Shown here: positions 15,581-30,086 of the stretch, in pieces
Numbering within the stretch: the first letter of the stretch is position 1
Layout: every line of letters begins with the position of its first letter
Source: Elusimicrobia bacterium RIFCSPLOWO2_12_FULL_59_9
GTDB lineage: Bacteria; Elusimicrobiota; Elusimicrobia; O2-12-FULL-59-9
Assembly: GCA_001800185.1 (NCBI GenBank)
Contig: MGUX01000066.1
Location: forward strand, 1-50,369
DNA length: 50,369 bases
Direction of reading: 5' to 3'
Program-made: the position numbers and the translations under genes
Notes under the pieces: model-generated
The model's input: the letters and a program-made list of their open reading frames with translations, nothing else
Told to the model about the DNA's origin: nothing
Database searches by the model: none

Positions 15581-17127
15581 GGCTTAATCGCTGTCCTCCA
15601 AGGAAACCGGACGCGGAAGCAGCTTCCCTTTCCGCGAGCGCTTTCGACCTTGATTTCCCCGCCGAGGGATCGGACGAGGGCCAGGCTGATGGAAAGGCCC
15701 AGGCCCGTGCCTTGCTCATGGGACTTCGTCGTGTAGAAGGGATCAAAGATCTTGTCCAGAAACTCCTCGGAAATTCCCGGGCCGGTGTCCGCGATGCTCG
15801 CTGATATCCACCCATCCGCGAGATGGCTCTCGACCTTGAGCGCACCCCCCCGCGGCATGGCATCGATGGCGTTGTTGAGGATATTTAGAAAGACATGCAG
15901 CAGGTCATTGCGCCGCGATTCGATTTTGGGCAGGTCTTCCGCCAAGGTCTCTTCCATGATGATGCCGGCCCGTGAAACTCGTCCCGACAAGATGTAAAGA
16001 GCCTCGGAAAGCACATCATTGAAGTCCGTGGGGGATTTTGGCTGGAGGTGGGGTTTGGAGAGGCTGAGCAGACTTCGGACGACGTTTCCCACGCGATCCG
16101 CCTGCCGGTCCACGATCTCCAGGGTTTCCTTGAGGAACTCCGGCGCCGCATATTCAGCGGCCCCCGACCGCGCCAGCTTCATGCGGGTGGAGATGATCCC
16201 GATGGGGTTATTGACCTCATGGGCGATATAGGCCACGAGTTGCCCCAGCGCGCCGAACTTTTCAGCCTGAAGGAGCCGCTGGTTGCTGGCGCGAAGACGC
16301 TCCATGATGGTCGTGGTAAAAAAGGTCGAGCCGCCCAGCAGGATTAAAAATGTGCCGGTCGTGCCCAACACGAACGGCAACTGATGAGACGCATGAGCGG
16401 CTTGCGCGCCATGCCCCTCATGGGGAAAAATAGCCAGGGTATAGTGGGGCAAGAGCCGGAAATACTCTCCGAAAGCGGCGAAAAGGAAGAACGCGGCGAT
16501 CAGCGCCGAGACCAGGTAGGCGTCTCTCTTGGGCAGGAGTATTCCCGCAATGATGACGTGGAATATATAGATGACAAAGAGGGGATTTTCGAGTCCCCCG
16601 GAGAAATGAAGCAGATGCGTGAGGATAACAAGGTCGGTGAGGATGAGCCACAGCATGCAGGACCGGAAGTTCCCGAACTCATTCTTCGTCCAATGGAAGA
16701 CCAGGCTTGTCAACCAGAGCGCCATGCATCCCATCCACAGATACGGCGTCACGGCGTCCGGAAGGAGGCGCAGCACGTGCTGCGAGACGAATATCGCGGC
16801 GGTCGTAACGGCGGCGACGATCCAGCGCATGCTGAGAAACCAGGCGATCTGCTCGCCGATCCCTTCCGAACCGACCAGAACGCCGACGTCTTGAGAGAAC
16901 AATCGTTGTGTCCGGCGGTTCAACCACCAAGCCGCTGCGAAGGTCCCAACAAGAGTGGCGCTGATTCCTCTTAAGATGTGGAGCCGGTGAAGCGTCTCCA
17001 TCTCCGCGCCTGGCAGCCCAAAGCGCTCGAGCAGTTCATAACCGCCGAATATCACGAGGATGACGGTGGCGATGATAGCTGGAAGCTGCCATCTGTCGTT
17101 AACGGCTGGTTCAACCATGTGTTCCAT
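15577..17127 (-). CDS. Sensor histidine kinase with a polytopic membrane sensor domain
   Basis: It has a HisKA H-box (IAHEVNNPIG) and HATPase N and G boxes (LNNAIDAM, GTGLGLSI), plus about 8 N-terminal TM helices. The start is set at ATG 17127 (MEHMVEP) because the ORF-track start at 17259 lies upstream of the sigma54 promoter. It overlaps the regulator start by 4 nt. Confidence 0.9.
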   Translation of the reverse strand: MEHMVEPAVNDRWQLPAIIATVILVIFGGYELLERFGLPGAEMETLHRLHILRGISATLVGTFAAAWWLNRRTQRLFSQDVGVLVGSEGIGEQIAWFLSMRWIVAAVTTAAIFVSQHVLRLLPDAVTPYLWMGCMALWLTSLVFHWTKNEFGNFRSCMLWLILTDLVILTHLLHFSGGLENPLFVIYIFHVIIAGILLPKRDAYLVSALIAAFFLFAAFGEYFRLLPHYTLAIFPHEGHGAQAAHASHQLPFVLGTTGTFLILLGGSTFFTTTIMERLRASNQRLLQAEKFGALGQLVAYIAHEVNNPIGIISTRMKLARSGAAEYAAPEFLKETLEIVDRQADRVGNVVRSLLSLSKPHLQPKSPTDFNDVLSEALYILSGRVSRAGIIMEETLAEDLPKIESRRNDLLHVFLNILNNAIDAMPRGGALKVESHLADGWISASIADTGPGISEEFLDKIFDPFYTTKSHEQGTGLGLSISLALVRSLGGEIKVESARGKGSCFRVRFPWRTAIKP

Positions 17128-17155
17128 CGCATTTAGCGAACGGCGAGGGGGTTGG

Positions 17156-17171
17156 TGCAACGAAATTGCCA
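17156..17171 (-). promoter_or_regulatory. Sigma54 promoter P3 for the kinase/regulator operon
   Basis: The minus strand reads TGGCAATTTCGTTGCA, identical to P1. It lies 29 nt upstream of the ATG at 17127. Confidence 0.7.
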
Positions 17172-17273
17172 TATAGGGGAAAGTGTTCGAGTGGTCCAGT
17201 GGTCGAGTGGTAGAGTGGTCCATTACGGCGGCATGGCTGCCGCTCCGTGATCGGATCATGGAGCGTTGCGGGA
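17156..17273 (-). repeat. Copy B of the shared promoter-upstream module
   Basis: It contains four tandem AGTGGTC-N octamers (17185-17216 region). The near-palindrome CTCCGTGATCGGATCATGGAG is at 17243-17263. It aligns with 5764-5905. Confidence 0.8.
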
Positions 17274-17283
17274 AAAGCAGCGC

Positions 17284-18561
17284 TCAAGCCGCGTCCCGGA
17301 AGTTTCCATGCCACACAGTCTTCGACTCAATATTCATGGCGGCAGACTCGCGCGGTGTAAGCTGCCCGGTCAGCACCGGGATGGTCATCTTCAGCAATAT
17401 AGTATAGAGCAGCATCCCGAAGCCCCATATCCCGGCGCAAATCAGCCATTCGTTGAGGGTCGGGAAGTACTCGACTATCTCGCCCAGGGGGCTGGGGATG
17501 AAGGCCGGGATAACCATGCCCATCCCCTTCTCGATCCAAATGCCCACGATGGCCAGCACACAAGCCAAGCTCAGGTATCTTAGACGGCGCGAGAACGGCA
17601 GCACCAGCAGGATGAGGGCCGCCGAATCGAGAACCATGGCTGTCCATATCCAAGGCACGAGGCCGTAGTGGCCGTGGAGGCCGAAGAATAAGTACTTGGC
17701 CGAGGCCACATGGGCTGAGTCGGTATAGAATTCCTTAAAAAGCTCGCAAAGCAAGAGGAAGACATTGATGATCATCGAGACCTGAACGATGTCCCGGAGC
17801 ATGAAGAGCGCCTTGTCAGTGACCTTGTAGGAGGACAGGCGGCGGATGACTTGCAAGGTCAGAATGAGGAAGCCCGGTCCGGCCGTGAAGGCCGAGGCCA
17901 AGAAACGCGGGGCCACGATGGCTGAGTTCCAGAAAGGCCGCCCCCCCAGGCCGACATAGAGAAATGCCGTCACGGTATGGATGCTGATAGCCCAGAACAT
18001 GGCGATGAAAACGAAGGGGATGTACCAGATTTTGGCCGGCTTGCGCTTGAGATACACCATATAGACCAAGTAGCCGGAGATTTGGACGTTCAGGGCCAGG
18101 TAGCCGTTGAGGACGATGACGTCCCAGCTCAGCATGGAGATGGGCCAATTAAACTTGCCGATCCCCGGAATCATATGCCAGAACCGGTCCGGGCGGCCCA
18201 GGTCCGCGGTGACGAAGAGCAGGCACATAACGATGACCGCCACGGCCAAGAGCTCGCCGAATATGACCACGTCGTGCAGCGTCTCGTCTTTGTAGACATA
18301 GACCGGCACCACCAGCATCACCGCGGCCGCCGCCATCCCCACAAGGAAGGTGAAGTTGGCGATATAGAGTCCCCAGGAGACCTGGTCGCTCATGCCGGTG
18401 ACGGTGAGGCCGGCGACGAGCTGCTTGCAGTAGGCGTTGAGCCCCAGAAGGGACACGGCTGTCAGTGCCGTCATCCATAGGTAGTAACGCCAATCCCCGT
18501 CGAGGGTCTTGCGGGCGCAGCGCCCGACGAATACCGCGTAGTCCTTGATGGCTTGGGTCAT
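17284..18561 (-). CDS. NrfD/PsrC-family membrane subunit (DsrP/HmeB/ActF-like)
   Basis: 425 aa with about 10 TM helices. The N-terminal pattern GLTVTGMSDQVSWGLYIANFTFLVG matches the NrfD-type first helices. It follows its FeS partner after a 2-nt gap. Confidence 0.85.
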   Translation of the reverse strand: MTQAIKDYAVFVGRCARKTLDGDWRYYLWMTALTAVSLLGLNAYCKQLVAGLTVTGMSDQVSWGLYIANFTFLVGMAAAAVMLVVPVYVYKDETLHDVVIFGELLAVAVIVMCLLFVTADLGRPDRFWHMIPGIGKFNWPISMLSWDVIVLNGYLALNVQISGYLVYMVYLKRKPAKIWYIPFVFIAMFWAISIHTVTAFLYVGLGGRPFWNSAIVAPRFLASAFTAGPGFLILTLQVIRRLSSYKVTDKALFMLRDIVQVSMIINVFLLLCELFKEFYTDSAHVASAKYLFFGLHGHYGLVPWIWTAMVLDSAALILLVLPFSRRLRYLSLACVLAIVGIWIEKGMGMVIPAFIPSPLGEIVEYFPTLNEWLICAGIWGFGMLLYTILLKMTIPVLTGQLTPRESAAMNIESKTVWHGNFRDAA

Positions 18562-18563
18562 GG

Positions 18564-19493
18564 TTAGAGGTTGAAGTAGTAGTAGAACCGGGGTAAAGTG
18601 CCGACCTCCTCCTTAAGGACATACACCCTTTTAGTTTTGATGATGTTGGCGATCTCGCTGTCGGGATCGAGAAGGTTGCCGAACTTGCGCGAGCCTGTGG
18701 GACAGACTTCGACGCAGGCCGGGTACTTGCCCTTTCGGGTGCGGTGCAGGCAGAAGTGGCACTTCTCCACGACGCCCTTTGGACGCGGCCGGTTGGAGAG
18801 GTAACCCATCTCCGGATTAAGTTCGTCTTTGGGGATCTCGGGCTTCTCAAAGTTGAAGCGCCGCGCCCCGTAGGGGCAGGCGGCCATGCAATAGCGGCAG
18901 CCGATGCACCAGTTGTAGTCGATGACCACGATGCCGTCGGGCTCCTGCCAGGTGGCCTGCACGGGGCAGGCCTTCACGCAGGGCGCCTTGCGGCACTGGT
19001 GGCACTGCACCGGCATGTAATAGAAGCCGTCCTTGGGGACCTCGCCCTCGTAGTCGGTCTTGGCGCTCTCCACGTCGATGGAACCCTTGCGCATCTGCAG
19101 GACACGGATGTATTGGATCTGAGGATTGCGCGACTGGTTGTTCTCCTTGGCGCAGGCGTACACGCACTTGCGGCAGCCGATACAGCGGCCGATGTTGAGG
19201 GCGTAGCCGAACTCGACGCCGGGAATGGGAGGAGGGTCGGTGACATTGGGGCGCACGCCGTAGTCCTTCTCGACCTGCGCGGCGATCCGTTCGAGAATGG
19301 CCTTCTTGTCCTCAGGGGTGAGCTCCTTGTAGTGCAGGCGGAGGAATTCCTCCAAAGTCGGCAGATCGACGACGTCTTTGAGGGGGGACAAGGCGGCCGC
19401 CGTGGCCGTCACGGCGCTGGTGGTCAACGCGGCCAGGAAGGCCCGACGAGAGATCTCATTGGCCGGTTCGCCCGGCTTGCGTTCCTCAGACAT
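18564..19493 (-). CDS. Tat-exported 4Fe-4S cluster protein (NrfC/DsrO/HmeA-like)
   Basis: 309 aa with the signal ISRRAFLAALTTSAVTATAAA. Cluster motifs are CIGCRKCVYAC, CHQCRKAPC, CIGCRYCMAACP and CHFC...CVEVCP. Confidence 0.9.
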   Translation of the reverse strand: MSEERKPGEPANEISRRAFLAALTTSAVTATAAALSPLKDVVDLPTLEEFLRLHYKELTPEDKKAILERIAAQVEKDYGVRPNVTDPPPIPGVEFGYALNIGRCIGCRKCVYACAKENNQSRNPQIQYIRVLQMRKGSIDVESAKTDYEGEVPKDGFYYMPVQCHQCRKAPCVKACPVQATWQEPDGIVVIDYNWCIGCRYCMAACPYGARRFNFEKPEIPKDELNPEMGYLSNRPRPKGVVEKCHFCLHRTRKGKYPACVEVCPTGSRKFGNLLDPDSEIANIIKTKRVYVLKEEVGTLPRFYYYFNL

Positions 19494-20134
19494 CAGTCGA
19501 GTCCTCCGTGGTTTTCGGCGCCGGCTGTCTTGCCGCCCTTAGCGCGTGTGCGCGGGTTGATATGGGGCGGCGGAGCGGCCTTCAGGGGCTTGAAGATGGG
19601 CCAGTGCGGGTTGTGGCAGGCGATGCAGACCTGAGTCTTGAGGGGGCCCTTAGCAGTGTCCCAAAAGCCGCTGCGCCGTCCATGGATGCCCAGGCCCCAG
19701 TCACGGTAGATCGTGCCGTGGCACTTCGCGCAGAGCAGTTGGATATTGTCGAGCTTGATGGGGCTGCCGTCGAAATTGGAGAAGTCCGCCGGCTGCATGC
19801 GGTGGTGGCAGTTGAAACAGTGCTGGTTGCGGCCGTGCTTAAGCTCAATGTGTTCATGGAAAATCCCCTTCTCATGGGGATTTCCCTGGAGCGGTTCGGC
19901 GCCCTCGTGGCAGGCCTGGCATGGAGCGCCATCGAAGGTCATCTCCGTGCGGACTTTGCGCACGGTGGAGGGGTCGGCGTATTCCGGGGATAGCTTGGGA
20001 ATGTCGTCGCGGCCCGGTCCTTTGCCGATGAGGTCCTTCGTGAAGACCACGGCCAGAGCGAGCAGGCAGGCGACGGCCGCGCCGGCGGCCGCCAAAGGAA
20101 TTCTCTTCGAGCCTTCGTCACGGTCCAAGGTCAT
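19493..20134 (-). CDS. Membrane-anchored tetrahaem cytochrome c (c3 family)
   Basis: 213 aa with an N-terminal TM helix. Four CxxCH motifs are present (CQACH, CFNCH, CAKCH, CIACH). Confidence 0.8.
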   Translation of the reverse strand: MTLDRDEGSKRIPLAAAGAAVACLLALAVVFTKDLIGKGPGRDDIPKLSPEYADPSTVRKVRTEMTFDGAPCQACHEGAEPLQGNPHEKGIFHEHIELKHGRNQHCFNCHHRMQPADFSNFDGSPIKLDNIQLLCAKCHGTIYRDWGLGIHGRRSGFWDTAKGPLKTQVCIACHNPHWPIFKPLKAAPPPHINPRTRAKGGKTAGAENHGGLD

Positions 20135-20910
20135 TTTCGCCCGGAGGCATCTTCCTTGTGCGCCTCAACGTAAAGGGTCTTGAGTTCCACCAAGAGGTCC
20201 TGGGAGCGGGGCAGGAGCTTCTTAAAGTCGAACTCATGCCAGAACCGGATGACGTCTTCGTAGGCCTTGTCGACCTTGGCCATTGCCCCGGGTTTCTTGA
20301 TGGACTTGTAGTAGAACTTGAGGCCCTTGCGGTATCCGTTGGCATGGTTGAGCCGCTCGAGAATCTCTTCGGCCTGGGCGATGACCTCGGGGTGGTTCTT
20401 GGTCCTGGGGTTGTGGCAGTTCTTGCAGGCCCGCTGGAGAATGGTCTTGGAATAGACGCGCGTGTTGAGCGAGCCGTGGCAGGTGATGCAATTGGGCCCT
20501 CGCCCCGCGGCATTCAACTGGTCGTAGTGTCGGCTCATGGCGAAGCGCGCGAGAATGGGCGCGTGGCAGTTGCCGCAGGTCTTTGGGATGTTCTTAAAAT
20601 AGAACGGGCTGTTAGGATTGGATTGAGGGAGGATGCCCTTATGAGCTTCCTCCTTGGATGCCTTAGTTGGTTCGCCGTTATGACAGGCCGTGCAGGAGAG
20701 CCCCGCTAAATCATGGGCGGAGCCGCTCCATTCCCGGTAGTAGTTGTATATCTTTTTATTCTGGACGCGGAATTTCTCATCCTGGTGGCACTCGCGGCAA
20801 GACTCGCGAGGCTCGGCGGCCACGACTTGTTGTCCCCAGGGAATCGACAGCAGGACCAAGAACAGGGCGGCTTGGACCATGAGCCTCGTGTTCTTCATTA
20901 AAATCGCCAT
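20131..20910 (-). CDS. Periplasmic pentahaem cytochrome c with a non-haem helical C-terminal domain
   Basis: 259 aa with a signal peptide. Five CxxCH motifs are present (CRECH, CTACH, CGNCH, CITCH, CKNCH). The last roughly 90 aa carry no haem motif. Confidence 0.8.
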   Translation of the reverse strand: MAILMKNTRLMVQAALFLVLLSIPWGQQVVAAEPRESCRECHQDEKFRVQNKKIYNYYREWSGSAHDLAGLSCTACHNGEPTKASKEEAHKGILPQSNPNSPFYFKNIPKTCGNCHAPILARFAMSRHYDQLNAAGRGPNCITCHGSLNTRVYSKTILQRACKNCHNPRTKNHPEVIAQAEEILERLNHANGYRKGLKFYYKSIKKPGAMAKVDKAYEDVIRFWHEFDFKKLLPRSQDLLVELKTLYVEAHKEDASGRK

Positions 20911-20917
20911 GCGGTTT

Positions 20918-21394
20918 TTAATCGGGGTTTGGAGGTCTTGATTGGTTTGCGAACAAATCTTTGAGTTTTTCCTGCTGAGCCTGGAATTCGCCCTGCTTTA
21001 AGATTTTCCTGACCTTGGAATCGTAGGTGAGAAAGTCCATGATCCTTTCCTCATCCGCCTTGCTCAATTCGATTCCGCGGCCTTTCATCTTGAGATGCAT
21101 CCTGCGCACATAGCGCTTCCAGACGTCCGCCTCCATGTACGGAGAGTTCAGGGGACGCGCCGTCGTATGGCAGGAGCCGCAGACGCCCAGGAAGAACCGG
21201 TAATTCGCCTTCTGATTCTCGGGGTAGCCGGACACGTCCACGGTGGGGGAGCCCAGGTCGTAGTAAAACGGCGGGACGGCCTTTGCGGAGGCAGCCGGGT
21301 TCTTCGGCGAGGGGGATTCTTCTTTTCCGCCGCAGGCCGCCAAGGAGAGCCCCGCAAGAAGGAGGACGATGAGGCCCGACGTTCGTATCCTCAT
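20918..21394 (-). CDS. Small monohaem cytochrome c lipoprotein, family copy 2 (ActE-like position)
   Basis: The ORF track extends to 21637, but ATG 21394 overlaps the upstream stop (ATGA). That start gives MRIRTSGLIVLLLAGLSLAAC with the lipobox LAAC. The core is YPENQKANYRFFLGVCGSCHTTARPLNSPY...FLTYDSKVRK. Confidence 0.75.
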   Translation of the reverse strand: MRIRTSGLIVLLLAGLSLAACGGKEESPSPKNPAASAKAVPPFYYDLGSPTVDVSGYPENQKANYRFFLGVCGSCHTTARPLNSPYMEADVWKRYVRRMHLKMKGRGIELSKADEERIMDFLTYDSKVRKILKQGEFQAQQEKLKDLFANQSRPPNPD

Positions 21395-22959
21395 GATGGG
21401 AAATAGGTGCGGATTCTCGCCACGACTTCCCCCTCGGCCTGCTCCTTTCCCTCCCGCACCTCCCAAATGGAGACGATGGGGAACACTCGGGTAAACATCG
21501 CATAGAGCATGACAAACGTCGAGATGCATCCCGCGAAGAGCGATATCTCCACCCAACTGGGCGTGTAGCCGCCGGTCGTATAGGGCAGCCGGGGTCGGAT
21601 CAAAGTGGGCACCACGATCAGAAATCTCTCCAGCCACATGCCCACGATCACAGTCGATGAAGCGATCACCGTCCCTCGGACCGTCTTCCCCAAGGGGGAG
21701 ACCAGGACGCCGAAGGGAACTACGAAGCAGGTGACGGCCATCAGCCAGAATGCGGGAGCGTAGGGCCCGCTGATCTTCAAGTTAAAGATCACCATGTGCT
21801 CGGGCTCGCCGCCGTACCAGGTCGTCAGGTATTCGGAGAACGTGAAGTAGAACCAGAGGCAGCACATCACCAGCAAGAGCTTGCCTAGATTCTCGAAGTG
21901 TATCGCCCGGAGATGGTTCTCCAGGCCATAGCCCTTGCGGAGCACCGCCATGGCGATGATGAGCGCCGCGATCCCCGAGAAGATGGCGCCGACCACGAAG
22001 TAGGGGCCAAAGATGGTCGAGTGCCACATCGGCTGGACCGTCATGCTGAAGACGTAGGAAACCACCGTGTGGACGCTGACGGCGACGGGAATCACCAGGA
22101 TGGCCATGATGGCGATGCATTTCTCCAACACTTCCCGTTCCTCGTGGCTGCCGCTCCAGTTCAAAGAAAGCAACTCGTAAAGGGGCTTGCGCCAGCCTTG
22201 AGCGCGGTCTCTGAGGATGGCGATGTCCGGGATAAGGGGAAGGTAGAGATAGAGGGTGCTGCCGATAAGATAGGTGGTGATGCTGCAGACGTCCCACATC
22301 AGCGGCGATTGAAAACGGCCTGCAAGAAAGACGTTAAGAGCGCGATCGGGACGGCCCAGATCAAGGATGATGTTGCCCGCCCCGAAGACGAGTACTAGGA
22401 CCGTGATCACCTCCGCCGAACGCGTGATGGAGCGCCGCCACTCCGCCTGGACGATCCTGAGTATGGCTGAGATCAGCGTTCCCGCGTGCGAGATGCCGAT
22501 GAAAAAGACGAAATTGGTGATGTAGAATCCCCAAAAGACCGGATTATTGAGACCCGTCACCGCGAGCCCGTAATACATCTGGTAGCACCAGGCGAAGATC
22601 GCCCAAAGGCTCACGCAGGTCAGGACCGCCATGGTCGCGAGGAATCCCCCCGTGGGCGCTTCGAAGATGGGGGCCACCAGGACTTCCTCCTCAGGGAATA
22701 TCTCCAGGGGGGCGGGGCTTTTTCCGCTTTTTGTTTTCCGCAACGCGATCTTGAAGAAAAGACGGGAGATGATCCAGGAAAGGATGATGAAGATGGGGCC
22801 GATGATGCTGCCCATGACCACGGCCGGCAGCCAGGCGTCGCCGAGCCGGTACGACGCGGCGGCGCGCCAGACGAACCAGCCGTTGGCCGCGACCGCGAAC
22901 GCGCAGAAGCCGGCGAAGCCCGCAAGCTGAACGTAAAAGGTCCAGTTCCTTGGTCTCAT
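21391..22959 (-). CDS. NrfD/PsrC-family membrane subunit (ActC-like) with an extra N-terminal roughly 110-aa TM extension
   Basis: 522 aa. From NPVFWGFYITNFVFFIGISHAGTLIS onward it is collinear with 5916-7274. The extra N-terminal segment holds 2-3 hydrophobic helices. Confidence 0.85.
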   Translation of the reverse strand: MRPRNWTFYVQLAGFAGFCAFAVAANGWFVWRAAASYRLGDAWLPAVVMGSIIGPIFIILSWIISRLFFKIALRKTKSGKSPAPLEIFPEEEVLVAPIFEAPTGGFLATMAVLTCVSLWAIFAWCYQMYYGLAVTGLNNPVFWGFYITNFVFFIGISHAGTLISAILRIVQAEWRRSITRSAEVITVLVLVFGAGNIILDLGRPDRALNVFLAGRFQSPLMWDVCSITTYLIGSTLYLYLPLIPDIAILRDRAQGWRKPLYELLSLNWSGSHEEREVLEKCIAIMAILVIPVAVSVHTVVSYVFSMTVQPMWHSTIFGPYFVVGAIFSGIAALIIAMAVLRKGYGLENHLRAIHFENLGKLLLVMCCLWFYFTFSEYLTTWYGGEPEHMVIFNLKISGPYAPAFWLMAVTCFVVPFGVLVSPLGKTVRGTVIASSTVIVGMWLERFLIVVPTLIRPRLPYTTGGYTPSWVEISLFAGCISTFVMLYAMFTRVFPIVSIWEVREGKEQAEGEVVARIRTYFPS

Positions 22960-23783
22960 GCTCCTTCCTTCAAATAGGTCACTTTGGGTTCGGCGCCCAG
23001 TTCTTCCAAAAGATGGAAGGCGCGGGGGTCCTTGGAGAGGTTGGCCGCGTCGCTGTCGTTGTTATTGAGATCCCCGAAGACGATGGCTTTCGCGGGACAA
23101 ATCTCCGCGCAGGCGGGCTGGTAATCATTTTCCCGCAGTGGCCGTCCCTCCGCCACAGCTTCCTCCTTGGCCCGTTGCAGGCGATGGTGGCAGAAGAGGC
23201 ACTTCTCAACCACGCCTTTGGGACGAATCGAGACGTCGGGATTAAAGGAGGCCTGCATCTCCTTCGGCCAGACCGGCGCTTTCCAGTTGAAGTCCTTGCA
23301 GGTGTAGGGACAGGCGTTGAGGCAGTAGCGGCAGCCGATGCAGCGCGAATAGACCTGGCCCACGATCCCTTCCTCGTTGCGAAACGTGGCGTAGACCGGG
23401 CACACCTTGGTGCAGGGGGGGGTGTCGCATTGCTGGCAGGGCATGGGCAGAAGCCTCTGCTTCGGCGCGGGAAACTCCCCCTCCTGAGAGGGAAGAATCT
23501 TGAGCCAACGGATGATCCTGCCCATCGCGGCTTCTTGAGGGTTTCCCAATGCCAGGTTGTTTTCCGTGGAGCATGCCACCACGCAGGAGCCGCACCCGGT
23601 GCACTTGTCCAGATCGATCACCATCCCCCAACGGTGCTCCCCCGGCTTGAGAGGCCTCTTGCCATGCCCCGCATCCCCAGGCGCGGTCCCCCACGCTTTG
23701 CCGATTCCACTCAGTAAGAACACGCCGAGAGTTCCAAGGAGACCCCGAAGGAATCCGTTGCGAGAGGTCGTCAAGCTTTCCAT
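22956..23783 (-). CDS. 4Fe-4S ferredoxin-type subunit (ActB2-like), paralog of 7271-8077
   Basis: 275 aa with the same four Cys-cluster pattern (CTGCGSCVVAC, CQQCDTPPC, CIGCRYCLNACP, CLFC...CAEICP). The Tat motif is degenerate (SRNGFLRG). Confidence 0.9.
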   Translation of the reverse strand: MESLTTSRNGFLRGLLGTLGVFLLSGIGKAWGTAPGDAGHGKRPLKPGEHRWGMVIDLDKCTGCGSCVVACSTENNLALGNPQEAAMGRIIRWLKILPSQEGEFPAPKQRLLPMPCQQCDTPPCTKVCPVYATFRNEEGIVGQVYSRCIGCRYCLNACPYTCKDFNWKAPVWPKEMQASFNPDVSIRPKGVVEKCLFCHHRLQRAKEEAVAEGRPLRENDYQPACAEICPAKAIVFGDLNNNDSDAANLSKDPRAFHLLEELGAEPKVTYLKEGA

Positions 23784-25813
23784 AGCTTCACCTCGGTCCC
23801 TTCCTCGCCTATCTCCAACGGGTTGGAGCCCAAGCCCTTGGCCCAGCGTCCGTAGCCGGCATGTCCCAATCCAACGGGGAGGCTGACCACTCCGGGCATG
23901 GCCGCCCGGGACAGACGCGCCCTGGCCTTGATCTTCCCTCTCCGGGATTCGACCCAGATCGCTTCTCCGTCCGATAGCCCCGGAAGCGAAGCGGTTTCAG
24001 GGTGCATCTCCGCCCAGGTCTCCCACGCCTCCTGCGTCTGAGGTCCCGCGACGCTTTGCAGATAGGGGAGATGCGCGCCCTCTCCGAAGGAAAAGGCGAG
24101 GGGCGCGTAAAGGTGCAGATGGAGAGGAAACCCCCCGTCCTCCCGCGCCTTTTTAACGTCCTGCAGTTTCAAAATGTCCGTCAATGCGTCGAACTCAAAC
24201 TTTCCCGAGCGGGTCGCATGGGGCTTGCCGGAGGCAGCAGCGCTCATCTCCCGCCAGATCTTTCCCCCGCTGCTTTCATGGAACATCTTTTCTGCCCGCA
24301 GTTTCTTCATATGGCCCATGACGTAGGAGTCAAAATCCGCTGGAACTCTCGTCCCAGCCAAAGCTCGCGTCAACGCCAGGAATATATCCCCGGGGTCCTT
24401 GGTCGCGTAGAGCGGCGCCACCGCTTCGGGGGCGGCGCCCAAGACCGCGCTCCCGTTCGCGGACACATGGAAAGAACAGTGGCCTCTTTCCAGGGGCGTG
24501 TGGCAGGGCAACACGAGATCGGAAGATAGCGCCGTCTCGTTTAGAAAAGAAGAGACCGTCGCCACAAAGGGCGTTTTCGCCACGATCTCTTTCCATCCCG
24601 ACGGCGACAGAAAGAGAGGATCGACACGATCGACCAGAAGCAGTTCCGGCGGCCGCGCCTGGAGACTTTGGTCGGCCAAGCCGTCCGCCCAAAAGCCTTC
24701 CCGTCCCTCCATCCCTGAGAATACGCCCCCCGTGCCGATGTTCCCCAAGAGGGCGTTGAGCGCGTGGACTGCCATCTGGGTCAGCAACGGCCCGCGGTTG
24801 GTGATGGCTGCCGCGGGTTTGAGGCTGGAGAGCTTGACCGCCAGCAAACGGATCTCCTTTTCGGGGACTTCCGTTGTCTTTGAAACATCATCAAGAGAAA
24901 GGGCGTCCAGGCTCTTTTTGAAGGCCTCGAAACCCCGGGACTGCGCGTGGATGAAGGCCTTGTCGTAGGTCTCATTGGCGATCAACTGCTTGGCCAGGAT
25001 CAACGCCAGAAGACCTTCCGTCCCGGGCCGGACGGGTACCCATTGGTCCGCCTTGCCCGCGGTCACGGAGAACCTCGGCTCGATCTGGACGATTTCGGCG
25101 CGGTCTCGAGACGGCCCTCGCCGAAGCTGCGCGAAAGCCATCTGCGCCTCGACCGGAGACGGGTAGGACTGGAGCCAGTCGAATCCAAAGGAGACCAGGA
25201 GCTTTGCGCGGCTCATGTGGAAAGCCACTCGGCGGCTTCCATGCATTCTCTCGTAAGCGTCGCTGGGAAACTCAGACTTGGGAAAGCCTAGGGCGAAAAA
25301 ATTATCCTTGCCTATGGAATCGGCCAAGCCCCGGAGCGCCTCGCCTTGTATGTCCCACGCCCGCGCCCGCGTTAGCGCGGCCAGCGGCTTAATCTTGCTC
25401 CCTGACTTCGCGCGGGTGATCTTCTCCGAGAGGGCGCGCAGGGCCTCATCCCAGGAGATCTCTTTCCACTCCCCGGATCCACGGGGGCCGCGTCTGAGCA
25501 GGGGAGTCCTCAGTCGATCTGGATGGTAGAGCTCTTGCAGGGAGGCCGCGCCCTTGGGACAGAGCCCGCCCTGATTGATCGGATGATCCGGGATCCCCGA
25601 GATTCCGACGGCATGGCCGTCGACCTTGCGCACGCGGATGCCGCAGCCCGCCGGACACAACCCGCAGATGGTGTAGGCGAAGCCCTCTTCCCCCATGGGC
25701 GGCGGCGCGTCTTCCTTGGGCGTGAGCACCGCCTTCTTGGCCCAGACCGGCAAGGCGGAGGTCAAGCCAGAGAAAATGCCGAACTTGAAGAAATTTCTTC
25801 GGGATATTTCCAT
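23771..25813 (-). CDS. Molybdopterin-oxidoreductase-like large subunit (ActB1-like), paralog of 8067-10217
   Basis: 680 aa with the Tat signal ISRRNFFKFG. The FS0 motif CGLCPAGC...LCPKG is present, and the protein is collinear with the 716-aa paralog. Confidence 0.85.
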   Translation of the reverse strand: MEISRRNFFKFGIFSGLTSALPVWAKKAVLTPKEDAPPPMGEEGFAYTICGLCPAGCGIRVRKVDGHAVGISGIPDHPINQGGLCPKGAASLQELYHPDRLRTPLLRRGPRGSGEWKEISWDEALRALSEKITRAKSGSKIKPLAALTRARAWDIQGEALRGLADSIGKDNFFALGFPKSEFPSDAYERMHGSRRVAFHMSRAKLLVSFGFDWLQSYPSPVEAQMAFAQLRRGPSRDRAEIVQIEPRFSVTAGKADQWVPVRPGTEGLLALILAKQLIANETYDKAFIHAQSRGFEAFKKSLDALSLDDVSKTTEVPEKEIRLLAVKLSSLKPAAAITNRGPLLTQMAVHALNALLGNIGTGGVFSGMEGREGFWADGLADQSLQARPPELLLVDRVDPLFLSPSGWKEIVAKTPFVATVSSFLNETALSSDLVLPCHTPLERGHCSFHVSANGSAVLGAAPEAVAPLYATKDPGDIFLALTRALAGTRVPADFDSYVMGHMKKLRAEKMFHESSGGKIWREMSAAASGKPHATRSGKFEFDALTDILKLQDVKKAREDGGFPLHLHLYAPLAFSFGEGAHLPYLQSVAGPQTQEAWETWAEMHPETASLPGLSDGEAIWVESRRGKIKARARLSRAAMPGVVSLPVGLGHAGYGRWAKGLGSNPLEIGEEGTEVKLWKA

Positions 25814-25817
25814 TTCG

Positions 25818-26318
25818 TTACTTATGGCAAGCCAGGCAGTCGTTGGTCACCTTCATCCTGTGGTGGCAGCCCATACAGCGCGCCATGCTGATAGTCACCG
25901 CTTGCCGCGTGACCGGCGCCTCCACCTTGGACATGTCGCCGTGACAGAGGGCGCAGTCCAGTTTGGCTAACCCCACGTGCCTGCGGTGGGAAAAATAGAC
26001 GTGGGTCGGCACGTTGTAGACCTTCTTCCAGGGGATCGGCTTGTTGGCCGAGACATAGTCGCGCACGGCTTTGGCTCTTGGATTTTCGTCATCGGAGGTG
26101 TGGCAGGCCGCGCAGACCTCCACCGTGGGAAGCCCTCCGCGCGCCTTCCCATCAGCGATGCCTGTGTGGCAGCCGGCGCACTCCAATCCCAGGGCGATGT
26201 GCTTCTTGTGGTTGTAAGCGACGGGTTGTTTTTTAGATCCCGACTGGTAACCGGCCAGCAAAAGCCAGACGAGGCCGATGAAGGCTAGGGACAAAACGGC
26301 CGCCGCAAGGTCTTTCAT
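25818..26318 (-). CDS. Membrane-anchored pentahaem cytochrome c (ActA-like), paralog of 10235-10744
   Basis: 166 aa with an N-terminal TM helix. Five CxxCH motifs are present (CAGCH, CAACH, CALCH, CMGCH, CLACH). Confidence 0.85.
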   Translation of the reverse strand: MKDLAAAVLSLAFIGLVWLLLAGYQSGSKKQPVAYNHKKHIALGLECAGCHTGIADGKARGGLPTVEVCAACHTSDDENPRAKAVRDYVSANKPIPWKKVYNVPTHVYFSHRRHVGLAKLDCALCHGDMSKVEAPVTRQAVTISMARCMGCHHRMKVTNDCLACHK

Positions 26319-26355
26319 CTATTTCCTTTTGCCGCAAGATGAAGTTCATTCCCGC

Positions 26356-27249
26356 CTACGGCGTTGAGGAAGCCGAGCCTCCCTTGACTCCAGGGTCGCC
26401 CGCGTACTCTTTGGCCAAAGAGGTAATTCCGGTCATGGCTCCTAGACCCATGGTTTCCACGGCGCTGGAGGGAACGACCACGATGGTGGAGCTCTTCCGC
26501 ATTCCTTCCAAAAGAATGTTCATGGCGCGAAGGTGAAGCGCGACGGGGCTATTGACGTAGGCCTTGGAAGACTCCTCAAAGACCTTCGAAACCTGTCGCT
26601 CCGACTCCGCCAAAATAACCCTGGCTTGTCGCTCCCTTTCCGCTTGAGCCTGCATGGACATCGCGTTCTGCAGGCTTGAAGGGATTTTCACATCACGGAT
26701 CTCCACTGACAGAGCCTTGATGCCCCAGACCTCCGTTCGCTGCTCGATCATCTCGCAAAGGTCCTTGTCGATTTTTTCTCTTCCCCGGAGCATTTCCGAG
26801 AGGTCGGTTTTGCCGATTACGTCCCGCAGGGCGGTCTGGCTGGACCAAGCAATGGCCTGCTGGTAATCCTCCACTTCGAGGGCCGCCTTCTTAGGATCCA
26901 CCACCCGCCAGAAAAGCACCGCGTCCACGTCCACCGGCACGCTGTCCTTGGTCAATGTTTCTTCCGCGGTAAAGGGGGTGGTGATCGTCCTCAAATCTAT
27001 CCAGTAGGGGATGGTATCCACGAAGGGAATGACGCCGAATAGGCCCGGCCCCCGCAGATCGTGGAACTTTCCCATCCGGAGGATCACCGCCTTCTGCCAT
27101 TGGCGCGCGACGCGCACGGCCAAAAAGAACAAGATGGCGAAAAGCGCGATGGCGGCCCCTACGGTTGGATTTTCGAATCGGACGCTCAACGCTCCCCCCG
27201 CGGCAAGCATCAAAACAAACAAAAGCACCGTAAATGGATGGATTCCCAT
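26356..27249 (-). CDS. SPFH/band-7 membrane scaffold protein, paralog of 10772-11677
   Basis: 297 aa. The RBS AGGAGG lies 7 nt upstream of the ATG. The sequence is nearly collinear with the first copy. Confidence 0.9.
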   Translation of the reverse strand: MGIHPFTVLLFVLMLAAGGALSVRFENPTVGAAIALFAILFFLAVRVARQWQKAVILRMGKFHDLRGPGLFGVIPFVDTIPYWIDLRTITTPFTAEETLTKDSVPVDVDAVLFWRVVDPKKAALEVEDYQQAIAWSSQTALRDVIGKTDLSEMLRGREKIDKDLCEMIEQRTEVWGIKALSVEIRDVKIPSSLQNAMSMQAQAERERQARVILAESERQVSKVFEESSKAYVNSPVALHLRAMNILLEGMRKSSTIVVVPSSAVETMGLGAMTGITSLAKEYAGDPGVKGGSASSTP

Positions 27250-27303
27250 CGTTTATTCCTCCTCTTAGGCGACGCCGGATCAAGCGATGCGTCTGGATTG
27301 ATA

Positions 27304-27319
27304 TGCAACGAATTGGCCA
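27304..27319 (-). promoter_or_regulatory. Sigma54 promoter P4 for the second SPFH/ACIII-like operon
   Basis: The minus strand reads TGGCCAATTCGTTGCA. It lies 55 nt upstream of ATG 27249 and 13 nt after the stop of the upstream gene. Confidence 0.65.
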
Positions 27320-28570: not shown

Positions 28571-28573
28571 GGA

Positions 28574-29736: not shown

Positions 29737-29882
29737 TCAGACCTTCCCAATCGGCGAAATTATGGCCCGCGTAGGTTTCGGAAGAAAGCCCGCGATGGCA
29801 CTCGATGCAAAAATTAGCCCGAATTCCCTGGTTGGGGAATTCCCTGCGCAGCGCGCAGGACGGGCTTCGCCCCGGGCTGCCT

Positions 29883-29917: not shown

Positions 29918-30086
29918 CCCTGCGGGGAATTCTGCACAATCGTGTACGTCGCATTGAGACGGCAATCGCGTCTCAACTGCAGAATTCAGGTTAGGCTTCT
30001 GTTGGGACCAACGGGGACGGGGCGCAACCGTCAAAAATCATAAAAAACATAAGTGATTTAAACATTTTGCTCTCTCGGATTGCAAG

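What the first reader, a model, noticed from the sequence alone, without database searches (positions are those of the whole stretch)
17284..27319. A 10-kb, ten-gene operon encoding two complete NrfD-type modules plus three extra cytochromes
From promoter P4 the genes are tightly coupled, with several ATGA overlaps. In order they are:
- SPFH, ActA-like, ActB1-like, ActB2-like;
- ActC-like, with an extra N-terminal roughly 110-aa TM extension;
- a monohaem lipoprotein, in the position and type of ActE;
- a pentahaem c, a membrane-anchored tetrahaem c, a Tat FeS protein and a second NrfD-family protein.

Canonical ACIII has two NrfD-like subunits (ActC and ActF) but only one FeS/haem arm. Here the second NrfD protein brings its own FeS and tetrahaem partners. 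I see no separate ActD; the N-terminal extension of ActC could be a fused ActD.

This looks like an ACIII variant, or a two-module supercomplex, that I cannot match to a described architecture.
Basis: partly seen in the sequence, partly recalled or inferred. Interest (0 to 1): 0.65.

Follow-up and report, generated by a model that had tools for sequence, protein, structure and literature searches.

The report
Two quinone-linked cytochrome complexes, one operon
A groundwater Elusimicrobia genome strings two separate, already-recognised kinds of membrane electron-transfer complex into one ten-gene operon inside an iron-respiration gene island; this is an unusual arrangement, not a new kind of machine.

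Summary
Ten co-directional minus-strand genes (17284-27249) have gaps of -13 to +37 nt. A sigma-54-type promoter lies at 27304-27319. No internal promoter or terminator signal stands out.

The string is two autonomous units.

- **Unit A** is SPFH, ActA (5 haems), a QrcB/ActB1-like protein, ActB2, ActC and a monohaem lipoprotein. Its four-gene ActA-B1-B2-C core recurs in all 80 related loci with enough sequence, across many phyla, with no ActF nearby. This is Qrc-style architecture with an ActC-fold membrane subunit.
- **Unit B** is a pentahaem, an anchored tetrahaem, a Tat FeS protein and an NrfD scored as DsrP. It has the architecture of Geobacter Cbc4 or DsrJOP. It stands alone in 80 of 80 metagenome loci; none of the 26 well-flanked ones has unit A nearby.

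The closest relative (93-99% identity) keeps a sigma-54 motif between the units, which the window has lost. Another relative has neither unit B nor the paralogue, and another fuses the units in reverse order.

The ActC N-terminal extension is a real, conserved two-helix hairpin, but it shows no ActD similarity or hallmark.

My reading is two independent quinone:cytochrome c complexes, co-expressed in an island that also holds Cyc2, MtrAB/PioAB and Rieske/cyt b genes. A supercomplex is not excluded but unsupported.

The parts
27304..27319 (-). sigma-54-type promoter (-24 TGGC / -12 TTGCA) upstream of SPFH
   Evidence: the motif class occurs 8 times against 1.2 expected. It is conserved at the same place in L006/L009, with a variant in L010.
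26356..27249 (-). SPFH/Band-7 membrane protein (297 aa), first gene of the operon
   Evidence: Pfam Band_7, 129 bits. An SPFH gene precedes ActA-B1-B2-C in L006/L009, L010 and Omnitrophota L053/L080, precedes unit B in L001 and lies upstream of it in L128. A 74%-identical paralogue lies at 10772-11686.
25818..26318 (-). ActA/QrcA-like membrane-anchored pentahaem cytochrome c (166 aa)
   Evidence: 5 CxxCH and TM 1-26. PDB ActA chains score 69-88 bits. NCBIfam QrcA scores 97 bits, below the 180 cut-off.
23771..25813 (-). QrcB/ActB1-like molybdopterin-fold subunit (680 aa), Tat signal, CX2CX3CX27C motif
   Evidence: Pfam Mo-oxidoreductase domains. NCBIfam QrcB aligns full length at 259 bits, below the 440 cut-off. 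ActB N-terminal domains score only 41-46 bits. The residues aligned with the Mo-ligand Cys of ArrA and PsrA are Lys179 and Leu175.
22956..23783 (-). ActB2/QrcC-like four-cluster FeS subunit (275 aa)
   Evidence: 205 bits to residues 796-1023 of R. marinus ActB. NCBIfam QrcC 297 bits, below 400. Four 4-Cys groups.
21391..22959 (-). ActC-type NrfD-family quinone-binding membrane subunit (522 aa)
   Evidence: 258 bits to 6f0k_C. The AF2 model (pLDDT 79.7) matches the four ActC chains with target-normalised TM-scores of 0.87-0.88, against 0.65-0.69 for ActF. Asp200, Ser218 and Asp223 are invariant in 121 relatives. The canonical ActC residues His139 and Asp253 are replaced by Asp and Val.
22651..22959 (-). 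codons for the clade-specific N-terminal extension of ActC (about residues 1-103): two TM helices plus a linker
   Evidence: Helices 6-38 and 44-72 have pLDDT about 77-92. Residues W6, Q11, F18, W28, F29, R32, G50, F57 and E91 are invariant in 16 sequences. About 22 of 121 relatives have the extension. No ActD similarity.
20918..21394 (-). monohaem lipoprotein (158 aa), accessory of unit A (ActE-like in position and type only)
   Evidence: Lipobox LAAC and one CxxCH. No Pfam or PDB similarity. Co-conserved after ActC in L008, L010, L011, L013, L053 and L080; weaker relatives lie upstream of ActA in L022 and L026.
20131..20910 (-). periplasmic pentahaem cytochrome c (259 aa), accessory of unit B in Elusimicrobia
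   Evidence: 5 CxxCH and a signal peptide. It precedes the tetrahaem in unit-B-only loci L007, L088, L089, L093, L094 and L154.
19493..20134 (-). membrane-anchored tetrahaem cytochrome c (213 aa), CbcS-like in architecture
   Evidence: TM 11-38, a linker and 4 CxxCH. Four further invariant His (H93, H100, H151, H177) in 58 sequences imply four bis-His haems. Some relatives carry NapC/NirT Pfam hits.
18564..19493 (-). Tat-exported four-cluster FeS protein (309 aa), DsrO/CbcT-like
   Evidence: Tat motif SRRAFL and four 4-Cys groups. The best NCBIfam hit is DsrO at 177 bits, below the 200 cut-off.
17284..18561 (-). second NrfD-family membrane subunit (425 aa), DsrP-type
   Evidence: NCBIfam DsrP 423 bits, above the 350 cut-off. 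Only 26% identical to the ActC-like protein. No ActF chain is matched in the PDB. It always follows a tetrahaem and FeS gene in the 80 related loci where enough sequence is held.
17156..17171 (-). next sigma-54-type promoter; marks the 3' limit of the operon
   Evidence: It lies in a roughly 150-bp element repeated downstream of NrfD3.
14219..17127 (-). histidine kinase (probable true start Met45 at 17127) and NtrC-type sigma-54 activator; candidate regulators of the operon (inferred)
   Evidence: Pfam HisKA/HATPase_c and Response_reg/Sigma54_activat. Sigma-54 activator genes lie next to ActA-B1-B2-C in many phyla.

Best explanation
The ten genes encode two separate periplasm-facing membrane complexes, each with its own quinone-binding NrfD subunit, plus an SPFH scaffold protein.

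**Complex 1** is ActA, B1, B2 and ActC, with the monohaem lipoprotein as entry or exit cytochrome. It belongs to the ACIII/Qrc family and has the four-subunit Qrc layout. Quinone binds near the periplasmic face of the ActC-fold subunit, at an Asp-Ser-Asp site. Electrons pass through the FeS chain of B2 to the five haems of ActA and the lipoprotein haem. B1 is probably a cofactor-less structural remnant.

**Complex 2** is the anchored tetrahaem, the Tat FeS protein and the DsrP-type NrfD, with a soluble pentahaem partner. It is a Cbc4/DsrJOP-type quinol:cytochrome c oxidoreductase.

Both connect the quinone pool to the periplasmic cytochrome pool. The surrounding island suggests iron redox chemistry: a Cyc2-type porin-cytochrome, an MtrA/MtrB-PioB conduit, Rieske/cyt b, CbcL-like and NrfH-like quinol dehydrogenases, and cytochrome c maturation genes.

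In this strain the two units are probably co-transcribed from one sigma-54 promoter, because the spacer holding unit B's own promoter has been lost.

Shown: gene content, motifs, folds, synteny and promoter motifs. Inferred: co-transcription, cofactor content, direction of electron flow, independence of the two complexes, and the SPFH role.
For: **Identities.**

**Unit A's core is autonomous.** ActA-B1-B2-ActC is found in all 80 GTDB loci with enough sequence, from Acidobacteriota, Nitrospirota, Planctomycetota, Zixibacteria, Omnitrophota, Myxococcota and others. No second NrfD gene lies within 10 kb, even at E<=0.01, unless unit B is there.

**Unit B is autonomous.** In 80 metagenome loci with NrfD2 relatives, tetrahaem, FeS and NrfD are always together where flanks exist. 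None of the 26 well-flanked loci has unit A. L007 has pentahaem-tetrahaem-FeS-NrfD alone, next to Rieske/cyt b.

**The units come and go at one site.**
- L010 has unit A followed directly by ResB.
- L006/L009 have A then B, followed by ResB.
- The window has A, then B, then regulators, Cyc2 and a paralogous unit A', followed by ResB.

**Promoters.**
- L006/L009 have the motif TGGCAACTTCGTTGCA in a 130-nt spacer between the lipoprotein and pentahaem genes.
- Unit-B-only loci L088, L089 and L093 have the motif upstream of the pentahaem.
- The window has a 7-nt gap there and no motif.

**Quinone-site residues.** The Asp of the DLGRP motif and the Asp of the WD motif are present in both NrfD subunits; the Ser between them is invariant in the ActC-like family.

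**Precedent.** Such modules sit side by side in iron-metabolism loci of MBNT15 (PMC9386147). For Cbc4 see bioRxiv 10.1101/2025.04.14.648717.
Against: The two units have been joined more than once.
- In L001 the order is reversed: SPFH, tetrahaem, FeS, NrfD, ActA, B1, B2, ActC. The NrfD stop overlaps the ActA start by 4 nt.
- Looser pairings, with a sigma-54 regulator between the units, occur in three Nitrospirota loci and one Myxococcales locus.

This recurrence argues for functional coupling beyond chance. SPFH leads both arrangements.

No RNA, protein or interaction data exist. Orthology to Geobacter CbcSTU could not be tested, because no sequences were available. The direction of electron flow in either complex is unknown.
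Confidence: 0.65

Rival explanations
1. The two modules assemble into one supercomplex. NrfD2 takes the ActF position beside ActC, possibly docked through the ActC N-terminal hairpin and organised by the SPFH protein. The result is an ACIII-like machine with two FeS/haem arms and two quinone sites, for example for quinone cycling.
For: - The two units were fused into one gene string in two different orders (the window and L006, and L001), and lie near each other in Nitrospirota and Myxococcales.
- SPFH leads both fused strings.
- ActC and ActF dimerise in canonical ACIII (PMC5928083).
- The N-terminal hairpin is present in the ActC of both fused lineages.
Against: - Each unit is overwhelmingly found alone: 0 of 26 well-flanked unit-B loci have unit A, and 5 of 80 unit-A loci have a unit-B-like neighbour.
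- The hairpin-bearing ActC also occurs without unit B, in L010 and L002.
- The sister strain has a promoter motif between the units.
- NrfD2 matches no ActF chain. Unlike ActF, it keeps quinone-site-type residues and has its own FeS partner.
Confidence: 0.15
2. Module 2 is the DsrJOP half of a dissimilatory sulfite-reductase membrane complex, whose DsrMK and DsrAB/C partners lie elsewhere in the genome.
For: NCBIfam DsrP scores 423 bits, above the 350 cut-off. DsrO is the best hit for the FeS protein. NCBI's pipeline names relatives in Elusimicrobiota as DsrP.
Against: - DsrO scores 177 bits, below the 200 cut-off.
- The cytochrome has four bis-His-type haems and no DsrJ hit; DsrJ is a trihaem.
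- No DsrM- or DsrK-type gene lies beside the module in the window or in the gene tables of L001, L006 and L007.
- The neighbours are Rieske/cyt b, multihaem cytochromes and cytochrome maturation genes.
- The three-gene unit matches Cbc4, whose CbcT falls in the DsrO orthogroup (PMC11434368).
Confidence: 0.05
3. Module 1 is a true molybdoenzyme, a Psr/Arr/Phs-like reductase of an unknown periplasmic substrate that uses ActA as an extra wire, rather than a cofactor-less ACIII/Qrc-type quinone:cytochrome c oxidoreductase.
For: B1 keeps the Tat signal, the CX2CX3CX27C cluster motif and all three Mo-oxidoreductase Pfam domains. Its best solved relatives are ArrA and PsrA.
Against: - Only the N-terminal third aligns well with ArrA or PsrA.
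- The positions aligned with their Mo-ligand Cys are Lys179 and Leu175.
- The only full-length model match is QrcB, a protein reported to lack the cofactor (PMC8076601, PMC6303296).
- The partners are ActA, ActB2 and ActC homologues.
- The same split B1 with this cluster motif is known in the ACIII-like clusters of iron oxidisers (PMC4643136).
Confidence: 0.08
4. The ten genes are not one transcript even in this strain. An unrecognised promoter inside or after the lipoprotein gene still drives unit B separately.
For: Unit B has its own sigma-54 motif in the sister strain and in unit-B-only loci. Consensus scans are weak evidence of absence. No RNA data exist.
Against: The gap is 7 nt. No sigma-54-like motif, allowing up to 2 mismatches, occurs on this strand anywhere in 17284-27249. 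No sigma-70-like hit lies on this strand inside the operon, and terminator-like hits are not above shuffles.
Confidence: 0.2

Closest known systems
Alternative complex III (ActABCDEF; Rhodothermus marinus 6F0K, Flavobacterium johnsoniae 6BTM, Roseiflexus 6LOD, Chloroflexus 8K9E)
   Same: - Pentahaem ActA with an N-terminal anchor.
- FeS domain ActB2 (205 bits).
- An ActC-fold membrane subunit (258 bits; target-normalised TM-score 0.87-0.88).
- A monohaem lipoprotein after ActC, in the position and of the type of ActE.
- Periplasmic orientation.
   Different: - No ActD and no ActF.
- ActB is split, and its B1 part is closer to QrcB and keeps a [4Fe-4S] motif.
- Two of the four >95%-conserved ActC quinol-site residues are changed (His139 to Asp, Asp253 to Val).
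- ActC has an extra two-helix N-terminal hairpin.
- The lipoprotein shows no detectable similarity to ActE.
QrcABCD menaquinone reductase of Desulfovibrio
   Same: - Four-gene layout: multihaem c, cofactor-less Mo-fold protein, FeS protein and a 10-TM NrfD protein.
- One NrfD subunit only.
- Asp at the position of QrcD Asp120.
- B1, B2 and ActA have Qrc models as their best NCBIfam hits.
   Different: - All four scores are below NCBI's equivalog cut-offs (97/180, 259/440, 297/400, 36/570).
- The membrane subunit is ActC-type, not QrcD-type.
- Five haems, not six.
- The organism and context are not sulfate-reducing.
ACIII-like clusters of neutrophilic iron oxidisers (actAB1B2CDEF; Ferriphaselus, Gallionella, Mariprofundus; PMC4643136)
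   Same: - Split ActB, with the identical CX2CX3CX27C motif in B1.
- A genome context with Cyc2, Mto/Pio-type conduits and bc complexes.
- A proposed link between periplasmic cytochromes and quinone.
   Different: Those clusters keep actD, actE and actF. This one does not.
Geobacter sulfurreducens Cbc4 (CbcS-CbcT-CbcU; bioRxiv 10.1101/2025.04.14.648717)
   Same: - The same three parts in the same order: an N-terminally anchored tetrahaem with a linker and four bis-His haems, a protein with four [4Fe-4S] motifs, and an integral membrane subunit.
- A setting among extracellular-electron-transfer genes.
   Different: - Sequence orthology was not tested.
- Here a soluble pentahaem gene is attached.
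- The unit is sigma-54 driven and sits in Elusimicrobia.
DsrJOP module of DsrMKJOP
   Same: The NrfD subunit passes NCBI's DsrP model. The FeS subunit is closest to DsrO. The cytochrome is anchored and faces the periplasm.
   Different: Tetrahaem rather than trihaem DsrJ. No DsrMK partner nearby. DsrO scores below its cut-off.
MBNT15 bacterium SHF-111 'ACIII-like' loci and Melioribacter roseus cytochrome-FeS-NrfD complexes (PMC9386147)
   Same: ACIII-like clusters lie in the same locus as multihaem-FeS-NrfD quinol-oxidising modules, and are interpreted as iron respiration.
   Different: There the modules are in separate, oppositely oriented operons, and the Act clusters keep ActD (one also has ActE and ActF). 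Here they form one co-directional, tightly packed string led by SPFH.

Membership tests
Alternative complex III | ActA: membrane-anchored pentahaem cytochrome c | tested here: met
   5 CxxCH and TM 1-26. ActA chains of four ACIII structures match at 69-88 bits.
Alternative complex III | ActB: Mo-fold domain B1 plus FeS domain B2 | tested here: met
   Present as two genes. B2 scores 205 bits to ActB 796-1023. B1 scores only 41-46 bits to ActB and is closer to QrcB.
Alternative complex III | ActC: 10-TM NrfD-fold subunit with quinol-site residues His139, Ser164, Asp169, Asp253 | tested here: inconclusive
   Fold and homology are met. Ser and Asp169 are kept, but His139 is Asp and Asp253 is Val. 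Both changes are invariant in 121 relatives.
Alternative complex III | ActD: two-TM subunit with terminal beta-alpha-beta motifs and a conserved Glu in TM2 | tested here: not met
   There is no separate gene. For the N-terminal hairpin of ActC, single-sequence and profile searches of the PDB give no ActD hit, and scans of the 16 sequences give no ActD Pfam hit. Helix 2 has no acidic residue, and only 5 residues precede helix 1.
Alternative complex III | ActE: monohaem lipoprotein cytochrome c | tested here: inconclusive
   Lipobox, one CxxCH and the position after ActC all fit. No similarity to any ActE chain or cytochrome c Pfam family was found.
Alternative complex III | ActF: second NrfD-fold subunit without a quinol site, paired with ActC | tested here: not met
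   NrfD2 matches only ActC chains weakly and no ActF chain. It is DsrP-type and has its own FeS partner. No ActF-like gene lies near ActC in the 80 related loci.
QrcABCD | four subunits passing NCBIfam equivalog models QrcA, B, C and D | tested here: not met
   Scores against cut-offs are 97/180, 259/440, 297/400 and 36/570. The four-gene layout itself is the same.
DsrMKJOP (DsrJOP part) | DsrP membrane subunit | tested here: met
   NF045798 scores 423 bits against a 350 cut-off, aligned over positions 3-344 of 346.
DsrMKJOP (DsrJOP part) | DsrO FeS subunit | tested here: not met
   NF045797 scores 177 bits against a 200 cut-off. It is the best hit but falls below the threshold.
DsrMKJOP (DsrJOP part) | DsrJ trihaem cytochrome and adjacent DsrMK | tested here: not met
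   The cytochrome has four CxxCH and no DsrJ model hit. No DsrM- or DsrK-like neighbour was seen. The rest of the genome was not available.
Cbc4 (CbcSTU) | anchored tetrahaem with four bis-His haems, a four-[4Fe-4S] protein and an integral membrane subunit, as one gene cluster | tested here: met
   TM anchor, linker, 4 CxxCH and 4 further invariant His. Four 4-Cys groups. An NrfD subunit. The three genes are contiguous in the 80 related loci wherever enough sequence is held.
Cbc4 (CbcSTU) | sequence orthology to GSU0068-GSU0070 | not testable with these tools
   No Geobacter sequences could be obtained. The preprint's supplement holds the CbcS sequence only as an image. Foldseek on the tetrahaem model gave no hits.

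The most novel reading that the evidence does not exclude
In a few lineages, an ActDEF-less ACIII/Qrc-type complex and a Cbc4/DsrJOP-type complex have been brought together repeatedly behind an SPFH gene because they work as one unit. This would be an SPFH-organised supercomplex, or an obligate pair with two quinone sites. One site would reduce and the other oxidise quinone, coupling iron-derived electrons to energy conservation. The clade-specific ActC hairpin would serve as the docking element that replaces ActD and ActF.
Probability: 0.12. Interest if true: 0.75.

Novelty: new variant of a known kind. Interest (0 to 1): 0.4.

Why it matters
The four-gene ActA-B1-B2-C complex is widespread. 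It has an ActC fold, a Qrc/Dsr-like Asp-Ser-Asp quinone site, and no ActD, ActE or ActF. I found no paper describing it as such, so it may be an uncharacterised branch between ACIII and Qrc.

Here it sits with a Cyc2-type iron oxidase candidate, an MtrAB/PioAB conduit and a Cbc4-like module in a groundwater Elusimicrobia genome. That makes the phylum a candidate for iron-based respiration. It also offers a natural test bed for how NrfD-type modules are combined.

Two further points could guide experiments on the assembly and regulation of such complexes: the repeated association with an SPFH gene, and the sigma-54 control.

The headline claim does not hold up on present evidence. This is not a new two-module machine.

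Tried and rejected
1. **RNA-seq operon mapping.** Only DNA metagenomes hold the sequence, and no RNA run was found.
2. **Foldseek on the AF2 model of the tetrahaem** (pLDDT 72.8). No match better than E=5. Multihaem folds without haem are uninformative.
3. **ActD test.** I searched the PDB with the single N-terminal extension and with a 16-sequence profile, and scanned the 16 sequences against Pfam. The only hits were spurious TM-helix matches such as influenza M2.
4. **ActE test.** The lipoprotein searched against the PDB at E<=10 gave nothing relevant.
5. **Direct comparison with Geobacter CbcS.** The sequence is held only as an image in the preprint's supplement.
6. **Sigma-70 and terminator consensus scan.** Not above shuffles. 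The real signals are sigma-54 type.
7. **My first guess that 'ERMHGS' in B1 marks the Mo-ligand position.** I dropped it, because HMMER alignments place the ArrA and PsrA ligand Cys at Lys179 and Leu175 instead.
8. **A full phylogeny against curated ActC, ActF, PsrC, DsrP, QrcD and NrfD sets.** Reference sequences could not be imported, so I used NCBIfam model scores, PDB matches and fold matches as the classifier.
9. **I considered and rejected that NrfD2 is an ActF substitute**.

Full report
**1. What is there**

The feature lies on the minus strand. Ten ORFs run from 27249 down to 17284. The gaps between them are +37, +4, -13, -4, -4, +7, -4, -1 and +2 nt.

The 82-nt gap upstream of the first gene holds TGGCCAATTCGTTGCA at 27304-27319. 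This has the GG/GC spacing of a sigma-54 promoter. The motif class TGGC-N7-TTGCW occurs 8 times in the window, against 1.2 expected from shuffles.

No such motif occurs on this strand inside the operon, even allowing two mismatches. The sigma-70 and terminator consensus scans find nothing above shuffles.

A second motif at 17156-17171 follows the last gene. It lies inside the mechanically called start of the histidine-kinase ORF, so the kinase more likely begins at Met45 (17127). Kinase and NtrC-type activator then form the next unit.

Contigs from independent groundwater and soil metagenomes tile the junctions. No RNA run holds the sequence. Co-transcription is therefore inferred from spacing and motifs only.

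**2. The genes**

| Gene | Evidence |
|---|---|
| SPFH/Band-7 | 129 bits |
| ActA-like | 5 CxxCH, N-terminal TM helix; 69-88 bits to the ActA chains of all four solved ACIII structures |
| B1 | Tat motif SRRNFF; CX2CX3CX27C; three Mo-oxidoreductase Pfam domains |
| B2 | Four 4-Cys groups; 205 bits to the C-terminal FeS domain of R. marinus ActB |
| ActC-like | 258 bits to 6f0k_C |
| Lipoprotein | Lipobox LAAC, one CxxCH; no family or PDB match |
| Pentahaem | 5 CxxCH, signal peptide |
| Tetrahaem | TM anchor, linker, 4 CxxCH |
| FeS2 | Tat motif SRRAFL; four 4-Cys groups; closest NCBIfam model DsrO, 177 bits against a 200 cut-off |
| NrfD2 | NCBIfam DsrP, 423 bits against a 350 cut-off |

For B1, the only full-length model match is QrcB (259 bits, cut-off 440). 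ActB N-terminal domains reach only 41-46 bits. The residues aligned with the Mo-ligand cysteine of ArrA and PsrA are Lys179 and Leu175. This fits the cofactor-less state reported for QrcB and ActB1 but does not prove it.

An AF2 model of the ActC-like protein (pLDDT 79.7, pTM 0.80) matches the four ActC chains with target-normalised TM-scores of 0.87-0.88. ActF chains reach 0.65-0.69 and PsrC 0.58.

In the tetrahaem family, four further histidines are invariant in 58 relatives. That is enough for four bis-His haems.

**3. Whose genome**

The ActC-like protein is 99% identical to one in 'Elusimicrobia bacterium NC_groundwater_1363' (GCA_016206405.1). Its other close relatives are groundwater Elusimicrobia MAGs. 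Lineage IV groundwater Elusimicrobia have already been reported to encode an 'alternative complex III' (bioRxiv 10.1101/765248).

**4. Unit A is a widespread, ActDEF-less branch of the ACIII/Qrc family**

I mapped the window's proteins onto 80 loci from GTDB species representatives. ActA-B1-B2-ActC appears in that order wherever enough sequence is present. The phyla include Acidobacteriota, Nitrospirota, Nitrospinota, Planctomycetota, Zixibacteria, Omnitrophota, Thermodesulfobacteriota, Myxococcota, Ignavibacteria and others. The cluster is usually followed by a class-I dihaem cytochrome c and often preceded by a sigma-54 activator.

No second NrfD-like gene lies within 10 kb, even at E<=0.01, except where unit B is present. 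The layout is therefore that of QrcABCD, but the membrane subunit is ActC-type. NCBIfam QrcD gives only 36 bits.

Across 121 family members, Asp200, Ser218 and Asp223 are invariant. Aligned to R. marinus ActC, Ser164 and Asp169 are kept. His139 is Asp and Asp253 is Val. So two of the four quinol-site residues reported as more than 95% conserved in canonical ActC (PMC8076601) are changed. The resulting Asp-x18-Ser-x4-Asp spacing equals that listed for DsrP of D. vulgaris and is close to that of QrcD.

Two further genes travel with unit A. SPFH and the monohaem lipoprotein accompany it in Elusimicrobia (L006/L009, L010). In Omnitrophota (L053, L080) SPFH does too, followed by a weaker lipoprotein relative (29-32% identity). 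All these loci lie next to Rieske/cyt b genes.

**5. The N-terminal extension**

About 22 of 121 relatives carry a roughly 100-residue extension.

- It is conserved: W6, Q11, F18, W28, F29, R32, G50, F57 and E91 are invariant in 16 sequences.
- It is modelled as two long helices, 6-38 and 44-72, with pLDDT of about 77-92, followed by a short helix and a linker.
- An even number of added helices keeps the ActC N-terminus cytoplasmic.

ActD is defined by three features (PMC5928083): two crossing TM helices, beta-alpha-beta motifs at both termini, and a 98%-conserved Glu in helix 2. The extension has the two helices only. Five residues precede helix 1, and helix 2 has no acidic residue.

Single-sequence and profile searches of the PDB do not find any of the four ActD chains. 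Scans of the 16 sequences do not find Pfam's ActD family.

The paralogous NrfD3 in the same window lacks the extension. 'Fused ActD' is therefore not supported. The extension is a real feature of unknown role.

**6. Unit B is an autonomous Cbc4/DsrJOP-type unit**

In 80 metagenome loci holding NrfD2 relatives (60-87% identity), tetrahaem, FeS and NrfD are adjacent wherever sequence allows. In the closest, Elusimicrobia-like loci a pentahaem gene precedes them. None of the 26 loci with at least 8 kb upstream and 5 kb downstream has any unit-A gene.

In Elusimicrobia MAG GCA_016196755.1 the four genes sit alone. They lie between CbcL-like and NapC-like cytochromes on one side and a Rieske/cyt b complex on the other.

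The architecture matches Geobacter Cbc4: an anchored tetrahaem with four bis-His haems, a protein with four [4Fe-4S] motifs, and an integral membrane subunit (bioRxiv 10.1101/2025.04.14.648717). CbcT falls in one orthogroup with DsrO (PMC11434368).

NCBI's pipeline names the Elusimicrobiota relatives 'DsrP'. However, no DsrJ, DsrM or DsrK homologue accompanies them. I could not test orthology to GSU0068-0070.

**7. How the two units came to be one string**

Three related Elusimicrobia genomes differ stepwise at this site.

- L010: Rieske - cyt b - SPFH - ActA - B1 - B2 - ActC - lipoprotein, then directly ResB/CcsA.
- L006/L009 (93-99% protein identity to the window): the same, plus pentahaem - tetrahaem - FeS - NrfD2, then ResB.
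- The window: a further block between NrfD2 and ResB. This block holds kinase - activator - Cyc2-like - cytochrome c - SPFH_b - ActA_b - B1_b - B2_b - NrfD3.

The extra block in the window is bounded by a roughly 150-bp direct repeat that includes the sigma-54 motif. L006 keeps a 41-residue remnant of NrfD3 just after NrfD2, so it lost the block by deletion.

L006/L009 have a 130-nt spacer with TGGCAACTTCGTTGCA between the lipoprotein and pentahaem genes. The unit-B-only loci L088, L089 and L093 carry the motif in the same position. The window has 7 nt there and no motif. The ten-gene operon is thus a strain-level fusion of two units, one of which has its own sigma-54 motif in relatives.

Against pure chance, the two units were also joined in the opposite order in L001: SPFH - tetrahaem - FeS - NrfD - ActA - B1 - B2 - ActC, with the NrfD stop overlapping the ActA start. 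They also lie within 10 kb of each other, separated by a sigma-54 regulator, in three Nitrospirota loci and one Myxococcales locus.

A similar side-by-side placement has been described in an MBNT15 genome and read as iron respiration (PMC9386147).

**8. Context and likely function**

The window is a respiratory island. It holds:

- a Rieske / cyt b / cyt b-C fused to three class-I haems, directly upstream;
- a CbcL-like multihaem-cytochrome b fusion, an NrfH-like gene and a multihaem gene;
- a DmsE/MtrA-family decahaem and an MtrB/PioB porin, both above NCBIfam cut-offs;
- FeoB;
- System II cytochrome c maturation and haem synthesis genes;
- a 441-aa protein carrying the published Cyc2 signature, AVPVFARKY-x3-CSQCH-x3-PVL.

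I therefore read the operon as two parallel links between the quinone pool and the periplasmic cytochrome pool of an iron-redox network. They are co-regulated through sigma-54, probably by the adjacent two-component system.

Direction is not determinable from sequence. One plausible split:

- Unit A carries electrons from cytochrome c to quinone, as proposed for the ACIII-like complexes of iron oxidisers (PMC4643136).
- Unit B carries electrons from quinol to cytochromes, as proposed for Cbc4.

The SPFH protein may organise or stabilise these complexes in the membrane. This rests only on conserved gene adjacency.

**9. Verdict**

Module 1 is an ACIII/Qrc-family variant. Module 2 is a Cbc4/DsrJOP-type unit, not an ActF arm. 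The extension is not demonstrably ActD. A two-module supercomplex is possible but not favoured (about 0.15).

Novelty lies in three things:

- the arrangement of the two units in one string;
- the hairpin and SPFH accessories;
- an apparently uncharacterised, widespread ActDEF-less ActC clade with an altered quinone site.

Noticed in passing
window 12797-14122 (-): A 441-aa protein with no Pfam or NCBIfam hit carries AVPVFARKY-GIS-CSQCH-TAF-PVL. This matches the published Cyc2 signature (AXPXFAR[Q/K][T/Y], CXXCH, PXL; length above 365 aa), and the protein ends in Phe like outer-membrane barrels. It is a candidate fused cytochrome-porin Fe(II) oxidase in an Elusimicrobia genome. It sits between the sigma-54 activator and the second ACIII-like unit.
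   Followed up: partly
window 5916-12243 (-): A second, paralogous unit: monohaem cytochrome c, SPFH_b (74% identical to SPFH), ActA_b (46%), B1_b (42%), B2_b (63%) and NrfD3 (49% to the ActC-like protein, without the N-terminal extension).
   Followed up: partly
window 17090-17300 and 5700-5930 (-); L006 11260-11545: A roughly 150-bp direct repeat, including the sigma-54 motif TGGCAATTTCGTTGCA, follows both NrfD2 and NrfD3. The sister genome has one copy plus a 41-aa remnant of the NrfD3 C-terminus, so it lost the roughly 11-kb block from the kinase to NrfD3 by deletion.
   Followed up: yes
window 34383-38537 (+), 38692-40671 (+): A DmsE/MtrA-family decahaem, an MtrB/PioB-family porin and a trihaem class-I cytochrome c form a porin-cytochrome conduit, followed by FeoB. 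Sigma-54 motifs lie just upstream, at 34305 and 38551.
   Followed up: partly
window 27332-33633 (-): Directly upstream of the operon lie a Rieske protein, a split cytochrome b and a cytochrome b C-terminal part fused to three class-I haem domains. Beyond these lie a multihaem gene, an NrfH-like gene and a CbcL-like multihaem-cytochrome b561 fusion. A sigma-54-like motif sits at 30087-30102 (-).
   Followed up: partly
window, eight sites (5764, 9019, 17156, 27304, 33688, 34305, 38551, 47736): Sigma-54-type -24/-12 motifs are about seven-fold over-represented. Most sit just upstream of respiratory gene clusters, which suggests the whole island is a sigma-54 regulon.
   Followed up: partly
L001 (GCA_016207645.1) 11729-19120: In this related Elusimicrobia MAG, the fused NrfD-ACIII-like string is followed by a cytochrome c and a NarG/NxrA-type GHJI cluster. 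This hints at a link to nitrate or nitrite respiration.
   Followed up: no
window 41982-49603 (+): 2-oxoacid:ferredoxin oxidoreductase genes are followed by a 1188-aa HdrA-like/MvhD fusion and a CCG-domain HdrD-like protein. These look like a cytoplasmic electron-bifurcation-type module unrelated to the finding.
   Followed up: no
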